Origin: a virus
Taxonomy: Duplodnaviria > Caudoviricetes
Virus record (IMG/VR): IMGVR_UViG_3300035670_000803
Location: 1-33,487 of that record
DNA length: 33,487 bases
Strand: one strand, 5' to 3'
Each line of letters begins with the position of its first letter. Positions within the stretch are counted from its first letter, which is position 1. Shown here in pieces: positions 3,998-22,499 of this stretch. The notes under the pieces were generated by a model that was not told the origin of the DNA, did not search any database, and worked only from the letters and a program-made list of their open reading frames with translations. A program made the translations under genes and the position numbers.

Positions 3998-5184
3998 TGC
4001 CAAGACAATTCAAAGCAACTGACACATCTCAATGGGCAGAACAATTTGGAACTGGTAAAGATGGTGCTATTAATATTACTGAAGCTGGAACAAGAGATTT
4101 TAAGGTTGCAAGTTCTCCTTTTACTACAGATGCAAATTCTTTTGCTTCTTTTACAGGAACAAGTGGTAATTCTTCAGGAAGTGCAACAGATGTTTGGGGA
4201 TTTCACCCAATATACACTTTTATAGGTGATTATGTATTAATTCATCAAACACAAGGAACAAATGTTGGTAACTGGGAATTAAATGTAATTACAGGTGGGA
4301 TACCAGCTTCAGGTGGTACATCAACTTTGACCTTAAAATATCCCTTACAAAATACTTATACAACTGGTTGCCAAATAATTAAATGTCCTCAATTTTCAAG
4401 TTTTACTTTAGGTGCATCAACATCTTTAACTCAAAGTTATTGGCAAGGTACTTGGGGTGGTATTGTTGCTTTCTTTTGTAATGGAACTACAACTCTTAAT
4501 GGTCTTTTATCTGTAAATGAAAGAGGTTCAAGAGGGGGTTTTGGTAGAGATTTTGGTTCTACTGCATTTACTGGAGAAAATGAAAACAATACTGGTCTGC
4601 AACAAACTTCTGCTTCTTATAATGGAGGTGGAGGTTCTGATGGTGATAATGGTGATGGTAGAGGTGCCTCTGGTGGTGGAGGTGGTAATTATACTGTTGG
4701 AAGTGCTGGTTCTACTGAAGGTGGTGGTGCTGTTGGTGGGAGTGGTGGTGCTGTTGCTCAAACTAATACTGAATTAACTGTTAATGTATTTGGTGGAGGT
4801 GGAGGTGGTGGTTCAAGGACTGGTTCTGGTGCTTATCCTGCAGGTGGAGCTGGTGGTGGGTTAATTTTTATATTTACAAAAGACCTACAAGTTAATAATC
4901 AAATATTAAGTAATGGTGGTTTAGGGCAAACAAGTGGTGATGGTGGAGGTGGAGGTGGTGCTGGTGGTTGTGTATTGATAAAAACAATTACAGCAACACT
5001 TGGTAGTAATCAAATAAATGCTTTAGGTAATACTGGTGGGATTAGAGGTGGTACTGGAGGAAATGGAAGAATACATTTAGACTATGCTTCTTCTTATACA
5101 GGCACAACTTCTCCAACTTTAAGTGCAACTCAAGACAGTTCTTTGTATCCAGCAGGGGGAGCTTTTATTTATAATTTACTATGA
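3997..5184 (+). CDS. Glycine-rich virion/tail protein
   Basis: 395 aa with multiple GGGG(S/A)GG tracts alternating with short beta strands; located in the tail module. Confidence 0.6.
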   Translation: MPRQFKATDTSQWAEQFGTGKDGAINITEAGTRDFKVASSPFTTDANSFASFTGTSGNSSGSATDVWGFHPIYTFIGDYVLIHQTQGTNVGNWELNVITGGIPASGGTSTLTLKYPLQNTYTTGCQIIKCPQFSSFTLGASTSLTQSYWQGTWGGIVAFFCNGTTTLNGLLSVNERGSRGGFGRDFGSTAFTGENENNTGLQQTSASYNGGGGSDGDNGDGRGASGGGGGNYTVGSAGSTEGGGAVGGSGGAVAQTNTELTVNVFGGGGGGGSRTGSGAYPAGGAGGGLIFIFTKDLQVNNQILSNGGLGQTSGDGGGGGGAGGCVLIKTITATLGSNQINALGNTGGIRGGTGGNGRIHLDYASSYTGTTSPTLSATQDSSLYPAGGAFIYNLL

Positions 5185-5386: not shown

Positions 5387-6103
5387 ATGACATTACAAGA
5401 GTTCATAACTAAATATAAAAATAAGACAGTAGATTTTGATGGAGCTTATGGGGGTCAATGTGTTGATTTGTTCAACAAATACCTAGTAGATGTACTTGGT
5501 ATTACAAACCCTATACAACAGTTTCCAGTAGCATCTGCTTATCAGATTTATGGTTATGCAAAGAATAACAGTTCATTTGTTTGTATCCCTAATGACCCAA
5601 CAGCAGTTCCTCAAGCTGGGGATATTATAATCTGGAATCAAGGAGTTGGTTCTCATGGTCATGTAGGCATATTTGTTGAGGGGGATGTAATGAGCTTTAG
5701 GTCATTTGAACAGAACTGGAATGGTATTCAAAAGTGTGTAATTGTTAATCACCCTTATGACCATGTAACTGGATGGTTAAGACCAAAAAGAAATATTCCT
5801 GAACCTGTTGTTGTAAAACCAACACCACAACCAATCTATACTCCAGAACCTGTTGTAACACCTACACCAGTAGTTGTACCACAACCAGTTCCAACACATA
5901 CTCATACAGAAGAAAAACCAAAACCATTAATTGATTTAACAATGCTTGATGGAAACAAAACAAAAATTGTTACAGGAATTGTTATTGTAATAGCTATACT
6001 TGCTCAACAAGGCTATATAGATGACAAAATGGTAGAAACTATCAACATGATTACAACAGCTCTTATTGGATACACTTTAAGAGATGCAATTAAAAAGAAA
6101 TAA
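5387..6103 (+). CDS. CHAP-domain endolysin with Pro/Thr/Val linker and C-terminal hydrophobic helices
   Basis: DFDGAYGGQCVDL (catalytic Cys), GDIIIW, HGHVGI (His) and EQNW are CHAP motifs. Confidence 0.85.
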   Translation: MTLQEFITKYKNKTVDFDGAYGGQCVDLFNKYLVDVLGITNPIQQFPVASAYQIYGYAKNNSSFVCIPNDPTAVPQAGDIIIWNQGVGSHGHVGIFVEGDVMSFRSFEQNWNGIQKCVIVNHPYDHVTGWLRPKRNIPEPVVVKPTPQPIYTPEPVVTPTPVVVPQPVPTHTHTEEKPKPLIDLTMLDGNKTKIVTGIVIVIAILAQQGYIDDKMVETINMITTALIGYTLRDAIKKK

Positions 6104-6108
6104 ATAAT

Positions 6109-6174
6109 CTGTACTGCCTTATGGTTTTAAAGTAAATAAAATTGAAATTAATTATTTATTTTAAGGCAGTACAG
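6109..6174. repeat. Perfect 13-bp inverted repeat around a 40-nt AT-rich spacer
   Basis: ctgtactgcctta (6109-6121) / taaggcagtacag (6162-6174). Confidence 0.85.
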
Positions 6175-6204
6175 CAGACAAAAGAATTATCATTATTATA
6201 CTCC

Positions 6205-6293
6205 ACAAAAAAAGGTCAGATTGCTCTGACCTTTTTATGATGAAAAATTTTCCTGCCCATGAAATTTATTCATAGTTCCAACCTGAATTGGAT
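6205..6293 (-). ncRNA. Candidate antisense sRNA-1 (about 88 nt)
   Basis: Minus-strand extended -10 TGtTATAAT (6308-6300), two short hairpins, ends in the 6207-6236 terminator, and contains segments complementary to 6357-6371 and 6460-6472. Confidence 0.55.
6207..6236. terminator. Bidirectional intrinsic terminator
   Basis: aaaaaaaggtcaga-ttgc-tctgaccttttt, giving a U-tract on both strands. Confidence 0.85.
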
Positions 6294-6321
6294 ATTTGAA
6301 TTATAACATATAACCAAATTC

Positions 6322-6349
6322 TTGACACTATTGGTAGATACATTACAAT
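6322..6349 (+). promoter_or_regulatory. Sigma70-type early rightward promoter
   Basis: TTGACA 6322-6327, 16-nt spacer, TACAAT 6344-6349. Confidence 0.7.
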
Positions 6350-6360
6350 AGATTTAGCCT

Positions 6361-6426
6361 ATGAAATTTATAATTAAATACCCTTATTACCATTGCAATA
6401 TTTATTTTATGAAAGGTCTGTTATGA
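6361..6426 (+). CDS. Putative 21-aa leader peptide MKFIIKYPYYHCNIYFMKGLL, coupled to the next gene
   Basis: ATG about 5 nt after the predicted TSS; its TGA overlaps ATG 6423 (ATGA). Confidence 0.4.
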   Translation: MKFIIKYPYYHCNIYFMKGLL

Positions 6427-6614
6427 CACAAGTCAAACTCCTGCTTGATAAAACCAAGCAAATTTTCCTGCCAAAAGGGAACACAGTATTTGATTTTACT
6501 GACATCTACAAATGTTGGTTACAAGGTAAATGCACCACACAATATCTGCATGATTATTGTATGAGGCAGATTGCTCTAGGGTTCAGTAAAGAATTAGAAA
6601 GGATACAAAAATGA
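6423..6614 (+). CDS. Hypothetical protein, first gene of the early rightward operon
   Basis: SD-like gaaagg before ATG 6423; the stop overlaps the next ATG. Confidence 0.6.
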   Translation: MTQVKLLLDKTKQIFLPKGNTVFDFTDIYKCWLQGKCTTQYLHDYCMRQIALGFSKELERIQK

Positions 6615-6748
6615 GATGCTTACCAGAACAAGACTTCTATTTAATTATAGGGGTTGCAATACTCACTTCATCTTTATGTGCAGTTTTGTTTGAGATGATA
6701 ATTAACAAATTCACCAAGAAAAAAAGAGGTAGAAAGAGTAGTAAATAA
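6611..6748 (+). CDS. 45-aa membrane protein (not in ORF track)
   Basis: MRCLPEQDFYLIIGVAILTSSLCAVLFEMIINKFTKKKRGRKSSK: one TM helix plus a basic tail; overlaps neighbours at both ends (ATGA, TAATG). Confidence 0.65.
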   Translation: MRCLPEQDFYLIIGVAILTSSLCAVLFEMIINKFTKKKRGRKSSK

Positions 6749-7209
6749 TGGCATGGGATTTATCAAACTATGAAACAGTAGAAGATAGAATTGATGCTTT
6801 CTACACAGATAACCAAGATGGAAGAATACTTACAGAGATTCACACACTAACTGCTGACAAAGTAATATTCAAAGCTCTTGTCTATGTAGGAGAAATCCTA
6901 GTTGCTACTGGTTTTGCTTATGAGAAAGAGGGTTCAACTCCTGTTAATAAAACATCTCATATAGAAAATGCTGAAACCTCTGCAATAGGTAGAGCATTGG
7001 CAAACTACAACTATGCCAAGAAAGGGGCTAGACCATCCAGAGAAGAAATGGAAAAGGTTGTAAGAATGCAAGAAGCACCAAAGACAGATACTGTATGGAC
7101 TGGTAAGTGTTCTAAATGTTCTACATCAATTCCTACATCAGTAGCAGTATTTAGTAAAAATAAATTTGGCAAACTACTTTGTAGAACCTGCCAAGAAAGT
7201 GAGAAATAA
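6748..7209 (+). CDS. Rad52/Sak-like single-strand annealing protein with C-terminal Zn finger
   Basis: 'Y.TV.DRI..F' and 'IENAETSAIGRALA' motifs; C-terminal CSKC...CRTC. Confidence 0.6.
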   Translation: MAWDLSNYETVEDRIDAFYTDNQDGRILTEIHTLTADKVIFKALVYVGEILVATGFAYEKEGSTPVNKTSHIENAETSAIGRALANYNYAKKGARPSREEMEKVVRMQEAPKTDTVWTGKCSKCSTSIPTSVAVFSKNKFGKLLCRTCQESEK

Positions 7210-8123: not shown

Positions 8124-8228
8124 GAGGGTAAAAACAATAATTGTCTTTACCCTCTTAAGTGTTAATGTGAAAGTGTTGCTGTGAGATAGCAATACTGGTT
8201 TTTGCTAGATAATGTGGGTTATCTAACA
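8124..8228 (+). other. Three consecutive stem-loops upstream of the replication gene
   Basis: Inverted repeats at 8124-8154, 8172-8196 (11 bp, two G-U) and 8203-8228. Confidence 0.6.
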
Positions 8229-8270
8229 GGACAATTATAACATTTTACCCACAAGAAAGTGATACTGCCA

Positions 8271-8963
8271 ATGAAAACAAGAATCATTCAAACCAGATTC
8301 TGGGATGATGAATTTGTGTTTAATGCATCCAAAGATGCAAAATTACTTTACATATACCTTTTAACTTCACAATACATTAATATCTGTGGCATTTTTCAAC
8401 TTGATGAGAGAAAGATAGCCTTTGAAACAGGACTTACTCCTAAAGAGTTTGAGAAAGCTAAACAAGAAATAGAAACTGCTAAAAAGGTTTTCTTCTATAA
8501 GGGGTGGGTTAAGGTCTGCAATGCAGAAAAGAATAATGGTTATAAAAACTCACCATTAAATGAAGTTGCTTATGACAGGGAGATTTCATTGATTCCTCAA
8601 GGTGTTTTAGATTATTTTAATAGTAGTATGGATACTAGTATAGATAGTAGTATGGATACTAACCATAAATCAGAAATAATAAATAATAAATATAAAATAA
8701 TAAATAAAACAAAAAAGGAATTTTCAGAATTTGATGATTTAACAGAGGATATATGTATGGAAATAGCAAATCAATATTCAGTTTCATTTGAGGATGTTTT
8801 AGATACAAAGCAGGATATAGAACTGTGGATGGGTAAGGCATCTAAAAATAGATACAGCAATTACAAGTTAGCATTACAAACTTGGGTTAGAAATAACAAA
8901 AAGAGTAATAAGTTCCAAACTACAAGCAGAAAGGGAGGTTATGCAGAAATCACAGACTACTGA
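8271..8963 (+). CDS. Replication initiator (N-terminal wHTH, DnaD/O-like architecture)
   Basis: 'R.I.T.FW.D......S...KLLYIYLLT.......GIF......IAFETGL' N-terminus, internal iteron-like repeats, C-terminal 'NYKLALQTWVRN'. Confidence 0.75.
   Translation: MKTRIIQTRFWDDEFVFNASKDAKLLYIYLLTSQYINICGIFQLDERKIAFETGLTPKEFEKAKQEIETAKKVFFYKGWVKVCNAEKNNGYKNSPLNEVAYDREISLIPQGVLDYFNSSMDTSIDSSMDTNHKSEIINNKYKIINKTKKEFSEFDDLTEDICMEIANQYSVSFEDVLDTKQDIELWMGKASKNRYSNYKLALQTWVRNNKKSNKFQTTSRKGGYAEITDY
8620..8720. repeat. Putative replication origin: direct repeats followed by an A-rich tract
   Basis: atagtagtatggatacta at 8620-8637 and 8644-8661 (12-bp sub-period), then a very A-rich run to about 8720. Confidence 0.65.
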
Positions 8964-9597
8964 TGAAGTAACAAACTACAAATGGGAAATCAAAGTAGGT
9001 GATGAGAAGTTTGAGTTATCAGAAAAAGGTTATCAACAACTCATGGAGAAAGAAAAGGAGGGGGTAAGGTTAGTTAAAATTGGAGATAAAGTTATAAACC
9101 CAGCATTCATTCAAAGTGCCAAAAAGATTTACAGAGAAGAACCTAAATTTGCATCAGACTTTCTTGACTGGGCAACTATGGGGGAAAACCCTATTCCAGA
9201 ACCAAAAGCTATAGCAAATAGACAGAAAATCATGGAAGAAACTAGAAAGATGATTAAGGAAAAGAACAAAGATTGGAAACCAGTCTATAAAGACCCAGTA
9301 CATAGAGAAGCAGTAGCAGATGTCTGGCTACATCTAAAATCAGTTTTAAGCACTCTAGAGTTCCCTATAAAAGATGATTCTTGGAAATCTGACCCTAGTA
9401 TCACTAAACATTCAGAGGGCAGGGAAAGTCATTCTGTGGAGTATAAAACCAAGATTATTGATTTAGGTGATAAATATGATGATAAGTTCTGGGCAGAGGC
9501 AAATTATATTTACTGTCCTGTGTGTAAAAAAGAATTAAGAAAACAAATTGTCATGTTTAATGAGTATGAAGCAGATGTAGTAGTAAGAAATTTATAG
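8941..9597 (+). CDS. Hypothetical protein next to the replication initiator
   Basis: SD gggagg, 218 aa, CPVC near the C-terminus. Confidence 0.7.
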   Translation: MQKSQTTDEVTNYKWEIKVGDEKFELSEKGYQQLMEKEKEGVRLVKIGDKVINPAFIQSAKKIYREEPKFASDFLDWATMGENPIPEPKAIANRQKIMEETRKMIKEKNKDWKPVYKDPVHREAVADVWLHLKSVLSTLEFPIKDDSWKSDPSITKHSEGRESHSVEYKTKIIDLGDKYDDKFWAEANYIYCPVCKKELRKQIVMFNEYEADVVVRNL

Positions 9598-9607
9598 AAA
9601 GATTAAT

Positions 9608-9814: not shown

Positions 9815-10280
9815 GAAATCTTTTCAAGAAAGAAAGCAGGTTGGAGATGCAGGAGAGAGATGCTTTGAGAAATATCTTGAGTCAAAATATAATCAGAGTC
9901 AAATTACCAACAGGCAGAAAGAAAACATGGTTGATTTCAAGTTGCCAGACTTTATGGTTACAACTAAAAAAGGTAATTATGAGTTTGAAGTTAAAACAAC
10001 CAACAAGATTAAGGTAAGAGATTTTAATTACCAGCTACAATATGCCCTAGATAAAAACCTAGTCCTGTACTATGTTTATGTCAAAATCCTCAATTCACAC
10101 AAATTCATGTTTAGAGCAATAGAAATTAGAAATATTTTAGATTATAGAGTGCTGTATGGGCAGGGAGTCTATCCAGACCCACCACCCAAAGCATTTTTTA
10201 CTGTAAATTGGAATTTATTTCTTGGACAGGACTATGAGAAGAAATGGGTTGAGTTTGAATCTCCTTACCCAATCTCTTAA
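9774..10280 (+). CDS. PD-(D/E)XK restriction-endonuclease-like protein
   Basis: G..GE helix, then LPDF and FEVKT catalytic motifs. Confidence 0.7.
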   Translation: MITNPNQRETKTYEKSFQERKQVGDAGERCFEKYLESKYNQSQITNRQKENMVDFKLPDFMVTTKKGNYEFEVKTTNKIKVRDFNYQLQYALDKNLVLYYVYVKILNSHKFMFRAIEIRNILDYRVLYGQGVYPDPPPKAFFTVNWNLFLGQDYEKKWVEFESPYPIS

Positions 10281-16664: not shown

Positions 16665-19600
16665 ATGGACATCTTTGAAAGAATTAGACAGATTATTACA
16701 CCATCTAATATAAAACAACCAACCCCTACTCCATCATCAAGTAAGGGAATTGAAGCAGTTAATCAAATAAGAAGTTCATTAAACTTACCTGCTAAACCTG
16801 TATCTTCTCAATTTACACCTACATTTAATTTACCTAGCCCAATAGATACAAAAAGATTTGAACCAAGAATACCTACTACACCACAACCACAAATGAGTAG
16901 GTTGCCTCAAATAAAACCACAGCAAGTTATGTCTGTTAAACCTCCAGAGCCAAAAGCAATACCATTTCAAACATTTACTCCAAGAGTTCCAGAAGCTGAA
17001 ACTCCTTTTGGTAAGTTTATTGTTAGTAAGGGTGTATTACCTCTTAATACTGGATTAACTAAATTATCTGATGCTTGGAAAAACACAGATAACAAAGGTG
17101 GTTTAGAAAGAACACTACAAGGAGTTGAGGGTGTTGGACTTATTGCTACTATCCCTAATGAGGTATTTATTCAACCTGTATGGGATTCTATAAAACTTGG
17201 AATTAAAGGTTTAAGAACAGGTAAGGTAACTCAAGATGACATTGATAACTTTTTATTTACATCTGGTGGGCAAAAAGGAACTATATTTGAAGCATTTGGA
17301 ACTAATGAAGATGAGTTTGGAAAACAATATGGTGATGTTGCACTAGGTGTTGCAAGATTTGCTGACTTTGCTCCAGAACTTATCAATGTACCTGGCTCTC
17401 AAGCTGGAAAAGGTGCTAAAACAATGACTCTTGCTAGAGAAGTAAAGGTTACAGGAAAAGGTGCTAAAGAATTAGGAGAACAAGCATCTAAAGCTAAAAA
17501 AGTAGAAGATACTATTAAACAATTTGAGGTAAAAACTGGTAAAGCACTTGATAATGCTACAAAGAATGAGATTAAAAAGACTGTTCAAAACCCACAGCCA
17601 TTCTTAAATAAACTTCAACAAAAAGCACCTAAAACAGAAGATTTAGTTTCTGAAGCAAGAAAATATAAAACTCCAGAGGAATTTATACAAACACAAGGAA
17701 TATTTGCTTATCATGGCACTCCTCAAAAATTTGAAAAATTTACTATTGAAACAGTAGGTAAATCAACTGATTCTGGTATGTTTGGTAAGGGAATATATTT
17801 TACAGAAAATTTAGATGAAGCTAGAACTTACTCAATAAGAGATGGAAAAGTGGGGGAAGTTAAAGAAGTATATCTTAAATTCAAAAATCCTTACATCATT
17901 AACTCTAAAAATGATATACCAAAAATTGATGTTCCAACAAAAACAATAGAAGATTTGAAAAATGCAGACAAAAAGTATTCAGAATTATTTACCAAATATT
18001 TACAAGATAGAGGTTTTGATGGTGTTATAGATAACTTAAGTTCAACAAAACAATATGTTGTTTTTAATCCTGAACAAATAAAGACAAAAAAGGAATTATT
18101 AAACATTTGGAATAATGCACAAAAAACTATTGCAAAAGACACACCAAAACTTACAACAAATATAGAGAATGTACTTAAATCAGTTAAAAAAGGAGCTGCT
18201 ACAGGCACATCAGAGGGAGCAAACTTGGGTGCAAAGATTATATCTGGAGCTCAAAAAGAAAGAAGATTTGCTAAAACAACTGTTGCTGGTGCTGAAAGAA
18301 CACCAAAAGCTCTTAAAAAGATTCTTGATGATTCAAATGATTTATATAACCCACTTAATAACAAAGTAGAGTTTGCTAAAGCTGAAAGATTTGTAGAAAC
18401 AAATTCAGTAGATGATGTATTAAACAGAATAAGAAGCACATCAGATACAAGAGAAGTTTCTTATCTTGGACAAGCTCTTATGAATAAGTTTCAAAAAATA
18501 GGTGATTATGCTTCAGAGGGGCAACTTGCACTTGAAATATCTAAAAAAGGAACAGAATTTGGACAAGCAATCCAAGCTCTTTCTATTTGGAAGAAACTTT
18601 CCCCTACTGGTGCTAAAGTCTGGGCTCAAAAACTAGCTAATGATGCAAATACAGCAAGTAAAGCAGTTGCTGGAGATAAAAACTTTGTTCAATTTACAGA
18701 ACAAGAATTAAAAGCTATTGGCAAACAAGCTGAAAAGATTGGTAAAGCTTCAACTGAATATGATAAGGCAGTCCAAACACAACTACTTGCTAAACTTATT
18801 TCTGCAAAACTCCCAACTGACTTCTTATCCAAAGTTGGAACAATACAAACAATGGCACAACTTATTAACCCTAAAACACTTGTAAGAAATGTGGCAGGTA
18901 ACATGATATTTGGTGTGTTTGAAGCAGTTTCAAATGGTATTGCTACCCCTATTGATTTAGCAGTGAGTCTATTTACTAAAAAAAGGGGTGTTGCAAACTT
19001 AAATCCAGTTGGTTATGCAAAAGGATTTGCACAAGGATTTGGTAGAGGTGTTAAAGAATCCTTACTTGGCATTGATACATTAGGTAATTCATCACTTGAG
19101 CAGGGTGTAAAAAATGGATTTATCTTTCAAAGCAAGGTAATGCAAGGATTTGAAAAGACATTAAACCTTGTTCTTAAACCATTTGATAGGGCATTTTATG
19201 AAGCAAACTACAGGGCAACACTTGAGGGTTTAATGAAAGCTAATAAGGTAGATAAACCTACCCAAGAGATGATTGAACAAGCTCACTACATGGGTCTATA
19301 TAGAACATTTCAAGATGATAATGTTGCAACTAAAGTATTTGGCAACCTTAAAAAGGCAATGAATACAAGTTATGACCCTAAAACTAAAAAGATAGTTGTA
19401 AATCCTTTTGGTTTAGGTGATTTAGTATTGAAATATACAAAAGTTCCAGCAAACATAATTATGAGAGCTGTTGATTATTCTCCTATTGGTTATGTAAAAG
19501 CAGTTATGGAATTAGCTCAACCATTATTTAAGAGAGAATTTAACCAAGCAGAGTTTGTAAATGCTATTGCAAGAGCAAGTGTTGGAACATTAGGTGTTAT

Positions 19601-21170
19601 GAATACAGGTTACATTCTTGGAAAACTAGGAATCATTACACCAAAACCTGATTCAAGCAAAGATGTTAGAAATGCACAGCAATTAGATGGTGTTAGAAGC
19701 TATGCAATAAACACTTCTGCACTAAAAAGATATGTAGCATCTGGATTTGACCCAGAGTCTGCAAAACAAATGGAGGGTGATACTTTAGTTTCCTATGACT
19801 GGGCTCAACCAGTATCTATTCCTCTTGCTATGGGTGCAAACTGGGCTGAAACTGAAAAGTTAAAGAAAAATTCTGCACAAGAAAGAATACTTGCTTCATT
19901 TGGTGCAGGTGGTGTTGCTTTTGCTGATGCTATGAACACCTTAACAGAACAACCACTACTACAAGGACTTAAAACAACATTCTCTCCACAAGGTTTAGTT
20001 CAAGGATTAATTAATACAGTTAAAGGAGCTCCAGCATCCTTTGTACCTACAGTATTAAATCAAATTAACCAATTAACAGACAATACAAGAAGAGAAACAT
20101 TTAGCCCTAACATTTTAGAGGAGAGTAAGAACCTTGCTATAAATAAAGTTCCATTTTTATCTCAAAGTCTGCCAGTTAAATATGACATCTTGGGCAAACC
20201 TTTAGAAAAGTATCAAGGTGGAACAAACACATTTGCCAATGTGATGATTAACCCAGCATTTGTTTCTAAAGTTGGTTCTGATGAGAACTTAAAAGAAGTT
20301 ATAAGACTTTATGAAACACTTGATGACACAGGAGTTATCCCAAACACAGTTACTAATAAAGTAAAAATTAATAAAGAAGATGTAATCCTAACAGGAGAGC
20401 AAATGTCTATGTATCAAAAAGAAATTGGTAGCAAATCTGATGAGTATATTAGAAAACTATTATCCAATGAAGATTACTATAAACTCCCAGATGATGCCAA
20501 AGCATCCTTACTTGCTAAAGGTTTATCAAATATAAATAGTGCAACCAAGATTAATATGTTTGGGGATAGACCAGAAACCATATCACAAGATGTAGCTCTA
20601 TTAAGAGATAACCAAATGGATAACTATGTCTATAAGAATGTAACTGATGCAATACTAGACCAACCAAAGAAAGAGATGTCTGTAAAAACTGACCAATTAG
20701 AGATTCTTCTTAAAGGACAAAGAAACCCAGAAGAAATCTCCAAGTTTATTATTGAAAACAAAATCCCACAAAGTTCTATCTCTGGGGTTATTAATAAGAT
20801 TGCAAAAGATGAGGTATTCAAGCAGTTATCCCCAGAGCTACAAAAATATAATGGTCTTTCAAACTCTCAACTTGAGGAATTAAAGACACTTAAACCACAA
20901 TTAACAACTGAAATTATCCAGTATCAATCACAGGCTAAAGTATTTGATACTATTGCTGATGCTCAAATTGGTTTCTATAAGAATCTTGGTACAAATAAAC
21001 CAAGAGCTTCAACAGGTAGAAGAAGAACTGGAAGAATTGCTAGAGCAAGAATCAAAAAACCAAGAAAACCATCATTGAAGTTAGCAAAGATTAAGGGAAT
21101 AAAAACCCCTAAAACAAGACAGATTAAGTTAGCAAAAATTAAGAAACCTAAACCTTTGAAACTTGCTTAA
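16665..21170 (+). CDS. Large polyvalent / DNA ejection protein with an internal ADP-ribosyltransferase-like domain
   Basis: 1501 aa; Pro-rich N-terminus; YHGT..GKGIYFT..A..Y..NPY..GFDGVI..YVVFNPEQIKT at about 17700-18090; long helical body; K/R-rich C-terminus. Confidence 0.7.
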   Translation: MDIFERIRQIITPSNIKQPTPTPSSSKGIEAVNQIRSSLNLPAKPVSSQFTPTFNLPSPIDTKRFEPRIPTTPQPQMSRLPQIKPQQVMSVKPPEPKAIPFQTFTPRVPEAETPFGKFIVSKGVLPLNTGLTKLSDAWKNTDNKGGLERTLQGVEGVGLIATIPNEVFIQPVWDSIKLGIKGLRTGKVTQDDIDNFLFTSGGQKGTIFEAFGTNEDEFGKQYGDVALGVARFADFAPELINVPGSQAGKGAKTMTLAREVKVTGKGAKELGEQASKAKKVEDTIKQFEVKTGKALDNATKNEIKKTVQNPQPFLNKLQQKAPKTEDLVSEARKYKTPEEFIQTQGIFAYHGTPQKFEKFTIETVGKSTDSGMFGKGIYFTENLDEARTYSIRDGKVGEVKEVYLKFKNPYIINSKNDIPKIDVPTKTIEDLKNADKKYSELFTKYLQDRGFDGVIDNLSSTKQYVVFNPEQIKTKKELLNIWNNAQKTIAKDTPKLTTNIENVLKSVKKGAATGTSEGANLGAKIISGAQKERRFAKTTVAGAERTPKALKKILDDSNDLYNPLNNKVEFAKAERFVETNSVDDVLNRIRSTSDTREVSYLGQALMNKFQKIGDYASEGQLALEISKKGTEFGQAIQALSIWKKLSPTGAKVWAQKLANDANTASKAVAGDKNFVQFTEQELKAIGKQAEKIGKASTEYDKAVQTQLLAKLISAKLPTDFLSKVGTIQTMAQLINPKTLVRNVAGNMIFGVFEAVSNGIATPIDLAVSLFTKKRGVANLNPVGYAKGFAQGFGRGVKESLLGIDTLGNSSLEQGVKNGFIFQSKVMQGFEKTLNLVLKPFDRAFYEANYRATLEGLMKANKVDKPTQEMIEQAHYMGLYRTFQDDNVATKVFGNLKKAMNTSYDPKTKKIVVNPFGLGDLVLKYTKVPANIIMRAVDYSPIGYVKAVMELAQPLFKREFNQAEFVNAIARASVGTLGVMNTGYILGKLGIITPKPDSSKDVRNAQQLDGVRSYAINTSALKRYVASGFDPESAKQMEGDTLVSYDWAQPVSIPLAMGANWAETEKLKKNSAQERILASFGAGGVAFADAMNTLTEQPLLQGLKTTFSPQGLVQGLINTVKGAPASFVPTVLNQINQLTDNTRRETFSPNILEESKNLAINKVPFLSQSLPVKYDILGKPLEKYQGGTNTFANVMINPAFVSKVGSDENLKEVIRLYETLDDTGVIPNTVTNKVKINKEDVILTGEQMSMYQKEIGSKSDEYIRKLLSNEDYYKLPDDAKASLLAKGLSNINSATKINMFGDRPETISQDVALLRDNQMDNYVYKNVTDAILDQPKKEMSVKTDQLEILLKGQRNPEEISKFIIENKIPQSSISGVINKIAKDEVFKQLSPELQKYNGLSNSQLEELKTLKPQLTTEIIQYQSQAKVFDTIADAQIGFYKNLGTNKPRASTGRRRTGRIARARIKKPRKPSLKLAKIKGIKTPKTRQIKLAKIKKPKPLKLA

Positions 21171-21894: not shown

Positions 21895-22146
21895 ATCTTC
21901 TATTTTCCTAATCTCTAACCTGTACCCAGCAACAGCAAGAATCTTAATAAATAAATTAACAGAAACAGTTGCTACCTTATTTTCATAGCTGGATATAACT
22001 GCTTTGTTTGTTCCAGTCATTTTTCCTAACTTTGATTGAGTTAAATTGTAATCTTCCCTAATTCTTTTAATAACAACTCTAAATATGTCAGAGCTTTCTA
22101 CTACAATCACTTTTTTCATTGGAGGTCTTTGGTATTTAATCTTCAT
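21868..22146 (-). CDS. XRE-family HTH regulator
   Basis: IKRIREDYNLTQSKLGKMTG.....ISSYEN; start position uncertain. Confidence 0.8.
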   Translation of the reverse strand: MKIKYQRPPMKKVIVVESSDIFRVVIKRIREDYNLTQSKLGKMTGTNKAVISSYENKVATVSVNLFIKILAVAGYRLEIRKIEDSAVPLSQS

Positions 22147-22441
22147 TGTTCTTGAAATGTGATTGGGTTCTGCTTGTAAAGTCAAATTCACTTACATCTT
22201 CATTTTTATCAACAATAAAGACTTTCTTATTAAACACTTTTAGAAACTCAATGATTACATCCATAGATGGCTTAATCTTTTTCATTTCATAACTGTTAAT
22301 TGCTTTACCTGAAACTTTAAGTAACCTACCCATCTCTTCTTGAGAGAAACCCATAGCCATTCTTTCATCAAAAATAGCTTGGTTAAAAACCCATTGGCTC
22401 ATGGACTTTCTATAAAATCTATTATTTTTCTCTGTAGGCAT
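22136..22441 (-). CDS. XRE-family HTH regulator
   Basis: R..MGFSQEEMGRLLKVS...INSYE.KKIKPS; minus-strand TGtTATAAT at 22458-22450 implies a nearly leaderless transcript. Confidence 0.8.
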   Translation of the reverse strand: MPTEKNNRFYRKSMSQWVFNQAIFDERMAMGFSQEEMGRLLKVSGKAINSYEMKKIKPSMDVIIEFLKVFNKKVFIVDKNEDVSEFDFTSRTQSHFKNNED

Positions 22442-22499
22442 CTACACAGATTATAACAAAAGTTGTATTTTTAATTTGAGCATAGATAAGGAGAGATAT

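What the first reader, a model, noticed from the sequence alone, without database searches (positions are those of the whole stretch)
6205..6472. Candidate antisense-RNA switch on the early rightward operon: divergent sRNA, leader peptide and two target sites
Seen: a minus-strand extended -10 (TGtTATAAT, 6308-6300) points into an 88-nt ORF-free stretch with two small hairpins that ends in a terminator with a U7 tract. This RNA carries ataaatttcatgggc, which pairs over 15 nt (one G-U) with gcctatgaaatttat at 6357-6371. That site is the extreme 5' end of the rightward transcript and covers the ATG of a 21-aa uORF whose stop overlaps the start of gene 6423. An overlapping segment, ggcaggaaaattt, pairs perfectly (13 nt) with 6460-6472 inside that gene. 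Known: P1 c4 and P4 CI RNAs control lysis/immunity through bipartite pairing to leaders with small coupled ORFs. Inference: this is an analogous RNA switch, encoded divergently rather than within the operon.
Basis: partly seen in the sequence, partly recalled or inferred. Interest (0 to 1): 0.85.

Follow-up and report, generated by a model that had tools for sequence, protein, structure and literature searches.

The report
Phage hairpin RNA guarding early operon
An uncultured phage carries a likely 89-base RNA that is complementary to the very start of its early messenger RNA and changes in step with it in relatives, so it probably shuts down the early recombination and replication genes by base pairing, although neither the RNA nor its effect has been observed.

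Summary
The promoters, terminator, 21-codon uORF and both matches are at the stated coordinates and exceed chance. The RNA belongs to a family of promoter-led hairpin RNAs with the loop core RGGCAGGR, found in 13 of 17 related phage records. Six records carry the promoter–uORF–gene-6423 cassette. In the three sequence types among them, RNA and mRNA 5' end differ in step (cognate duplex about -19 kcal/mol, p about 0.001 each). In G010 the RNA gene lies 4.5 kb away and inverted, yet still antisense, which argues for RNA pairing in trans, not DNA repeats. The most likely mechanism is a block of the near-leaderless uORF and so of the coupled early operon. No integrase was found, so a lysogeny switch is unsupported. 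Seven records keep the RNA without the cassette, which is unexplained; three such RNAs match other phages' leaders. There is no Rfam match, no expression data and no known host.

The parts
6300..6328 (-). Leftward promoter of the sRNA: -35-like 6328-6323, extended -10 6308-6300; overlaps the -35 of the rightward promoter
   Evidence: a TATAAT (TAAAAT in G004) precedes every family copy listed
6205..6293 (-). Predicted 89-nt sRNA (+1 inferred from -10 spacing)
   Evidence: top hit of model R1, built without window-type sequences
6251..6258 (-). Family loop core GGGCAGGA
   Evidence: GGCAGG invariant in 8 of 8 syntenic copies and in 8 of 8 model copies
6255..6269 (-). Anti-A seed (complement of the mRNA 5' end and uORF start)
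6245..6257 (-). Anti-B segment (overlaps anti-A by 3 nt)
6205..6236 (-). Terminator hairpin with U7; probably also ends the rightward late transcript
6322..6349 (+). Early rightward promoter P_R (11 of 12 consensus); +1 predicted at 6356
   Evidence: conserved in 6 cassette records
6357..6371 (+). Target site A at the mRNA 5' end, covering the uORF ATG
6361..6426 (+). Near-leaderless uORF; position and -1 overlap conserved, peptide not
   Evidence: 6 of 6 cassette records
6423..6614 (+). 63-aa protein of unknown function, first gene of the early operon; SD at 6411-6416
   Evidence: no family or fold match
6460..6472 (+). Target site B in codons 13-17 of gene 6423; lineage-restricted
6439..6445 (+). 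Weak second core-complementary site (7 nt; net energy about 0)
6567..6577 (+). Match C to the terminator; lost in G001 and energetically unfavourable, probably chance
6611..6748 (+). 45-aa hydrophobic, basic-tailed protein; absent behind the cassette in L016 and G010
6748..7209 (+). Probable single-strand annealing protein (Sak-like lead); ERF at this place in L016 and G010
8259..8963 (+). DnaD-like replication protein, downstream in the early region
6110..6200 (.). Separate conserved element: covarying long hairpin, 13-mer at 6177-6189 and ATTATA at 6195-6200; strand unresolved

Best explanation
The stretch 6293-6205 likely encodes a small hairpin RNA that likely pairs in trans with the first 16 bases of the early mRNA and would thereby block the near-leaderless uORF and the early genes predicted to be coupled to it. 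Shown by sequence and comparison: two back-to-back promoter consensus sites, a covarying terminator, a uORF at +1 to +6 overlapping the next gene in the -1 frame, and matched changes of RNA and target in three sequence types. Inferred: that both RNAs are made; that gene 6423 needs the uORF ribosome to open its partly paired start region; and that pairing represses translation, possibly followed by decay or polarity on the annealing-protein and replication genes. Site B would be an auxiliary site in this lineage. The biological role is most likely timing or damping of early expression, with possible exclusion of co-infecting phages of the same sequence type.
For: Matches beyond chance. Cassette present in 6 of 17 records, with uORF geometry kept in 6 of 6 although the peptides are unrelated. 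Cognate duplex energies are -19.7 (window), -18.6 (G002) and -19.3 (G010) kcal/mol, at p 0.0005-0.001 against own-genome 16-mers; cross pairs are weaker, e.g. G002 RNA on window mRNA -10.2 and G010 RNA on window mRNA -6.9. Among all predicted transcript starts, the cassette start is the best partner in 3 of 3 cassette records tested (p_any 0.011, 0.026, 0.004) and nothing is significant in 7 of 7 records without the cassette. In G010 the RNA gene is 4.5 kb away and inverted, with its own promoter flipped too. Accessibility-corrected net energy is -10.6 for A and -8.8 for B. The predicted RNA strand folds more stably in 12 of 12 stems.
Against: No expression data. With the full-length RNA, the G002 cognate pair is no better than non-cognate (-3.5 against -3.6 to -3.9) and G010 reaches only -2.9. 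In a genome-wide energy scan, site A ranked 6th among non-self sites in the window and was not among the top 7 in G002. Only three independent sequence types exist, and G010 pairs through a different side of the core. Seven records keep the hairpin without the cassette gene, so the leader does not explain the invariant core. The main-gene SD/AUG is predicted mostly open in G010 and half open in G002, which weakens obligatory coupling there. The window, G001, L016 and L017 copies fail my loop descriptor; L016/L017 score only 14.7 bits, E 0.71, with model R1.
Confidence: 0.58

Rival explanations
1. The RNA's main partner is a conserved host RNA or protein recognised by the RGGCAGGR loop; pairing to the early leader is secondary, or runs the other way, with the early 5' end titrating the RNA.
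For: The core is invariant while location, stem and flanks vary; 7 records have it without the cassette. In the window the AGGA half of the core does not pair with site A.
Against: The variable loop part tracks the leader in three types. Three copies (G006, G007, G010) lack GGA at the core, against a CsrA-type site (motif recalled). No host is available to search.
Confidence: 0.15
2. The RNA activates or antiterminates rather than represses, as IsrK does for orf45-anrP, by opening the leader.
For: IsrK activates a coupled uORF in trans (PMC4825925, passages). Co-folding with site B rearranges the leader, and in G010 the target is predicted to be paired in cis.
Against: The seed covers the uORF AUG itself in all six cassette records, and site A is almost fully open without the RNA (opening cost 0.6 kcal/mol).
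Confidence: 0.07
3. A divergent type I toxin-antitoxin pair: the RNA silences a toxic small protein (the 45-aa membrane peptide or the 63-aa protein).
For: The layout resembles tisB-istR1 and shoB-ohsC, and the coupling resembles mok-hok (PMC4147584, passages). The 45-aa product is hydrophobic.
Against: L016 and G010 have RNA and cassette but ERF directly after the 63-aa gene. The 63-aa protein and the uORF peptide are not hydrophobic. Toxicity is untested.
Confidence: 0.08
4. The matches are DNA repeats: operators for a phage protein, or relics of a duplication with no pairing role.
For: Site A lies over +1 of P_R, where an operator could sit. The window encodes two HTH_3 proteins. G008/G009 suggest the 5' ends arose as copies of the RNA gene's opposite strand.
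Against: The promoter flips with the repeat in G010. The one mismatch in site A is G-U compatible in 4 of 4 window-type records. Stems covary.
Confidence: 0.12

Closest known systems
P1/P7 c4 antisense RNA (Rfam C4 family)
   Same: A trans-acting phage RNA pairs through loop sequence with a translation start region; small sequence changes give phage-specific pairs (PMC5320573 and PMC12197685, passages).
   Different: c4 has three stem-loops, RNase P processing, and separate a' and b' loops, and it maintains lysogeny. Here there is one loop with overlapping seeds, its own divergent promoter and terminator, no Rfam match, and no integrase.
P4 CI RNA
   Same: RNA-only control of a replication operon through leader pairing.
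   Different: CI is processed from the regulated transcript and pairs with seqA and seqC on either side of it to cause termination (PMC4825925, passages). Here the gene is outside the operon and covers the first start codon.
Divergent type I antitoxins IstR-1, OhsC, Orz, AgrB; Sok/mok-hok
   Same: Divergent genes share a short repeat that makes the RNAs complementary; Sok blocks a leader ORF on which the next gene depends (PMC4147584, passages).
   Different: Those divergent antitoxins pair in long 5' UTRs away from the start site and control a membrane toxin. Here the target is the extreme 5' end of a phage early operon.
P22 sar, lambda OOP and aQ
   Same: Short phage antisense RNAs acting on developmental genes (PMC5415839, PMC12197685, passages); G008 and G009 have a cis layout over an ERF leader.
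   Different: OOP and aQ are listed as cis-encoded there (sar is cis as recalled), whereas the window's pair and G010's are in trans.
Gifsy-1 IsrK
   Same: A short phage RNA acts in trans on a uORF coupled to the next gene.
   Different: IsrK is the 5' part of its own target mRNA and activates translation.

Membership tests
C4 antisense RNA (P1/P7) | Match to the Rfam model at gathering score | tested here: not met
   0 hits in the window; no C4 model among 13 weak hits at E up to 10
C4 antisense RNA (P1/P7) | Two separate loops pairing with two target boxes | tested here: not met
   anti-A and anti-B overlap by 3 nt; B absent in G002 and G010
C4 antisense RNA (P1/P7) | Covers a translation start, with allele-specific pairing | tested here: met
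   computationally only:
C4 antisense RNA (P1/P7) | RNase P processing from a longer precursor | not testable with these tools
   no reads; the gene has its own promoter and terminator
C4 antisense RNA (P1/P7) | Target operon encodes an antirepressor in a temperate phage | tested here: inconclusive
   protein 6423 has no family or fold match; no integrase; plasmid-like lysogeny not tested
P4 CI RNA | RNA lies inside the regulated transcript between its two targets | tested here: not met
   divergent in the window; 4.5 kb away in G010
P4 CI RNA | Causes premature transcription termination | not testable with these tools
   a hairpin at 6442-6460 is listed as terminator-like; function unknown
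Type I toxin-antitoxin (divergent) | Divergent sRNA complementary to the 5' region of the mRNA | tested here: met
Type I toxin-antitoxin (divergent) | Small hydrophobic toxin always linked to the RNA | tested here: not met
   the 45-aa peptide is missing behind the cassette in L016 and G010
Type I toxin-antitoxin (divergent) | Toxicity neutralised by the RNA | not testable with these tools
   needs expression tests
CsrB/RsmZ-type sponge | Several GGA motifs in loops (recalled) | tested here: not met
   one core per RNA; G006, G007 and G010 have no GGA there

The most novel reading that the evidence does not exclude
These integrase-less phages trade a mobile ~45-nt key-and-lock RNA: a fixed RGGCAGGR loop plus a variable flank that reads the first codons of a leaderless uORF. 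Phages lacking the lock keep keys that fit their relatives (G008 fits the window type, G009 fits G002, G006/G007 fit G010). The RNA would then be an RNA-only weapon that silences the early operon of competing phages, as well as an autoregulator.
Probability: 0.2. Interest if true: 0.85.

Novelty: new variant of a known kind. Interest (0 to 1): 0.62.

Why it matters
It defines an RNA family absent from Rfam, with natural allele pairs that make compensatory tests straightforward. It suggests that c4-like RNA control with allele specificity can work from a single loop on a near-leaderless uORF, in phages with no detected integrase. If the cross-phage matches are functional, it would be inter-phage exclusion by a minimal RNA. 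The cis (G008/G009), adjacent (window) and distant (G010) layouts also offer a traceable route from cis-antisense to trans-acting RNA.

Tried and rejected
RNA runs: no RNA holder was listed, so no reads were laid. Host: no prophage was found in GTDB genomes by pattern or protein; the best cultured terminase match is 49.6% and the best capsid match 32%; no DNA match to the region in the phage collection. The host is unknown. Patterns had spacing errors of mine and missed known loci; L021 and L023, 24, 26, 27, 28, 31, 33 were chance hits. Protein 6423: model pLDDT 74.5, Foldseek nothing, best VIA Z 6.0, atlas nothing usable. RNAalifold found no consensus on A5. Pair counts on A8 were unclear (56% paired; a +1 slide gave 61%), because stem registers differ and weak hits were included. 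Weak model hits in L078, L074, L066 and L004 were not counted as members; the three inspected lie antisense over genes. Match C was rejected. Near-leaderless HTH genes as a general second target were rejected: only G003 gives 8 bp. A genome-wide duplex scan did not single out targets. In one search the G001 mRNA began 2 nt late; one search corrects this. A recalled idea that the loop is complementary to host rRNA was not tested. Whole records were fetched for 14 of the 18 loci. Paper searches (listings only) showed no description of this RNA; the library lacks most subscription papers and supplements were not read.

Full report
Setting. The window is one linear virus record (G000, 33,487 bases, 33.7% G+C). 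It has terminase, portal, major head and tail genes and a CHAP endolysin at 5387-6103. The finding lies between this lysis gene and a rightward region with a probable annealing protein (atlas lead), YopX and a DnaD-like protein. No host could be assigned.

Observation. Three exact matches link 6205-6293 to the rightward transcript: A (11 nt, 15 with one G-U), B (13 nt) and a previously unnoted C (11 nt). They are the three longest on the + strand, and 0 of 20000 shuffles gave three such matches. Rfam has no match at gathering score and only weak unrelated ones below it.

Relatives. Searches with gene 6423, the annealing gene, a conserved 62-aa lysis-module gene and DNA patterns gave 16 related records besides the window: G001-G014 (whole) and two short contigs, L016 and L017. 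The 6423 gene occurs in G001, G002 and G010 among the 14 whole records and in L016 and L017, so 6 of 17 records carry the cassette. In all six, a uORF starts at +1 to +6 of the predicted transcript and overlaps the main gene in the -1 frame; its peptides are unrelated between types. It therefore looks like a coupling device, not a conserved peptide.

The RNA family. In the four window-type records a 30-nt stretch around the core is invariant, and the terminator has four compensatory pairs (4 sequences only). GGCAGG is invariant in 8 of 8 syntenic copies aligned. A descriptor (upstream -10 plus RGGCAGGR in a closed loop) hit once each in G002-G006 and G008-G011, against shuffle means of 0-0.075 per genome. 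Among the eight records G007-G014, which were not used to notice the motif at its usual place, 4 hit against 0.275 expected; I had already seen three of these four, so this is not a blind test. The window-type copies failed the descriptor because their stem is weak. However, a covariance model built from eight other copies ranks 6234-6278 (minus) first in the window at 23.9 bits, E 5e-4, next 14.2; L016/L017 reach only 14.7 bits. In the window the core-in-loop fold costs 4.9 kcal/mol more than the two-hairpin fold. In total 13 of 17 records have the RNA, G007 has a variant without an evident promoter, and G012-G014 have none. The predicted RNA strand is the more stable one in 12 of 12 stems, though G-rich strands tend to fold better anyway.

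Target covariation. The cassette 5' ends fall into three types, and each RNA fits its own: -19.7, -18.6 and -19.3 kcal/mol, p about 0.001 at a position fixed in advance, with weaker cross pairs. The window RNA still pairs fairly well with the G002 leader (-15.3). Among all predicted transcript starts, the cassette is the best partner in G000, G002 and G010, and nothing is significant in seven cassette-less records. G010 is the most telling case: no RNA gene lies beside P_R, but one sits 4.5 kb away on the other orientation with its own extended -10, and carries an exact 10-nt complement of the uORF start. A DNA-binding site would not need its promoter to flip with it. A seventh case is hinted at by a mis-called protein extension (P0162) that reads through the same core and promoter region; this is protein-level evidence only. 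Against this reading: with full-length RNAs, G002 shows no cognate preference and G010 only a small gain; site A is not top in a plain genome-wide energy scan, though it is the top contiguous helix in G000, G001, L016 and L017.

Sites B and C. B is perfect in G000/G001, has one mismatch in L016/L017 and is missing in G002 and G010. Its seed overlaps the A seed by 3 nt. Net energies are -10.6 (A), -8.8 (B) and positive for C. Co-folding offers an alternative complex in which B pairs with the core while the neighbouring U-rich CAU pairs with the uORF AUG. B is best treated as a lineage-specific helper and C as chance.

Mechanism. Shown: architecture, conservation and matched change. Inferred: the RNA is made from a promoter overlapping P_R, binds the open 5' end, and prevents initiation at the uORF. 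In window-type phages the SD and AUG of gene 6423 are predicted about two-thirds paired, so loss of the uORF ribosome would silence it and, by coupling or polarity, the annealing and replication genes. I put this at 0.58. No tyrosine integrase (0 of 10 records, two with terminal repeats) or serine resolvase (0 of 5) was found, so early-gene damping in a lytic or carrier cycle is more likely than a classical lysogeny switch; plasmid-like lysogeny was not tested.

What remains unexplained. Seven records (G003-G006, G008, G009, G011) keep the hairpin without the cassette. In G008 and G009 it lies on the opposite strand of the region just upstream of an ERF gene, and that strand reads like the 5' ends of the window and G002; this suggests the trans pair arose by duplication from a cis pair. 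G008, G009, G006 and the G007 variant match leaders of other phages at p 0.001-0.006 (14 x 6 comparisons, and the shared core raises the baseline). G003, G004, G005 and G011 match none. Shared descent explains the cross matches as easily as competition does. A host partner for the invariant core remains open.

Comparison with known systems. It works like c4 (loop pairing at a start region, allele specificity; PMC5320573; PMC12197685) and like Sok on mok-hok, in the layout of IstR-1/tisB (PMC4147584). It is not a member of C4 or CI: no Rfam match, no separate loops, not embedded in the operon (CI and IsrK details from PMC4825925; sar and OOP from PMC5415839). I saw matched passages of these five papers only. 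Eight literature searches (listings only) showed no description of this RNA. Two earlier AI reports of this scan describe similar anti-leader RNAs in other phages; I could not check them, and sequence look-ups found no overlap. They suggest the strategy recurs but are not evidence.

Verdict. A real, conserved, undescribed phage sRNA candidate with comparative support for its target and no expression evidence: a new variant of a known kind, interest 0.62.

Noticed in passing
window 6110-6200: A second conserved element follows the lysis gene in most relatives: a long hairpin with changing but paired arms, an invariant 13-mer that begins with a perfect TTGACA in five relatives, and ATTATA. It could be a rightward promoter firing into the sRNA terminator, a leftward promoter for a second RNA, or both; folding asymmetry was mixed (2 minus, 4 plus, 1 tie).
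   Followed up: partly
L003 4936-4985 and 5085-5115; L045 6460-6510; L047 6975-7035: Further hairpins in the same intergenic region of relatives, one with a conserved 13-mer, absent from the window; the region may be a cluster of small RNAs.
   Followed up: no
window 22136-22441 (-), promoter -10 near 22458: An HTH_3 gene predicted to start 2-3 nt after its transcription start, followed by a second HTH_3 gene, inverted among structural genes; similar near-leaderless starts in G003, G008 and G009. In G003 the start pairs 8 bp with that phage's hairpin loop.
   Followed up: partly
G010 21469 (-); G008 14895 (-): Core-complementary heptamers between SD and ATG of an 84-aa gene (G010) and at codons 4-6 of a 103-aa gene (G008): possible extra targets.
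   Followed up: partly
window 6423-6476: The first 18 codons of gene 6423 are 50 of 54 identical to L016/L017, against 78 of 126 further on, consistent with RNA-level constraint on the hairpins and site B.
   Followed up: partly
window 16665-21170: A 1501-aa protein with an ART-PolyVal ADP-ribosyltransferase domain at residues 348-474, possibly an ejected polyvalent protein.
   Followed up: no
window 8124-8196, promoter -10 near 8242 (-): Two hairpins and a leftward extended -10 just upstream of the replication gene, conserved in G002: another candidate antisense RNA.
   Followed up: no
window about 4550-5000 and about 4560-5030 seen from the minus strand: Local direct repeats of up to 20 nt inside the 3997-5184 gene.
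   Followed up: no
G008 9540-9600 (L054 5905-5965); G009 near 10151: Leftward promoter-hairpin units after the lysis gene with a different loop, at the place where other phages have the RGGCAGGR RNA.
   Followed up: no
P0161/P0163 cluster (P0015): In this lineage the uORF appears fused in frame to the 6423 homolog.
   Followed up: no
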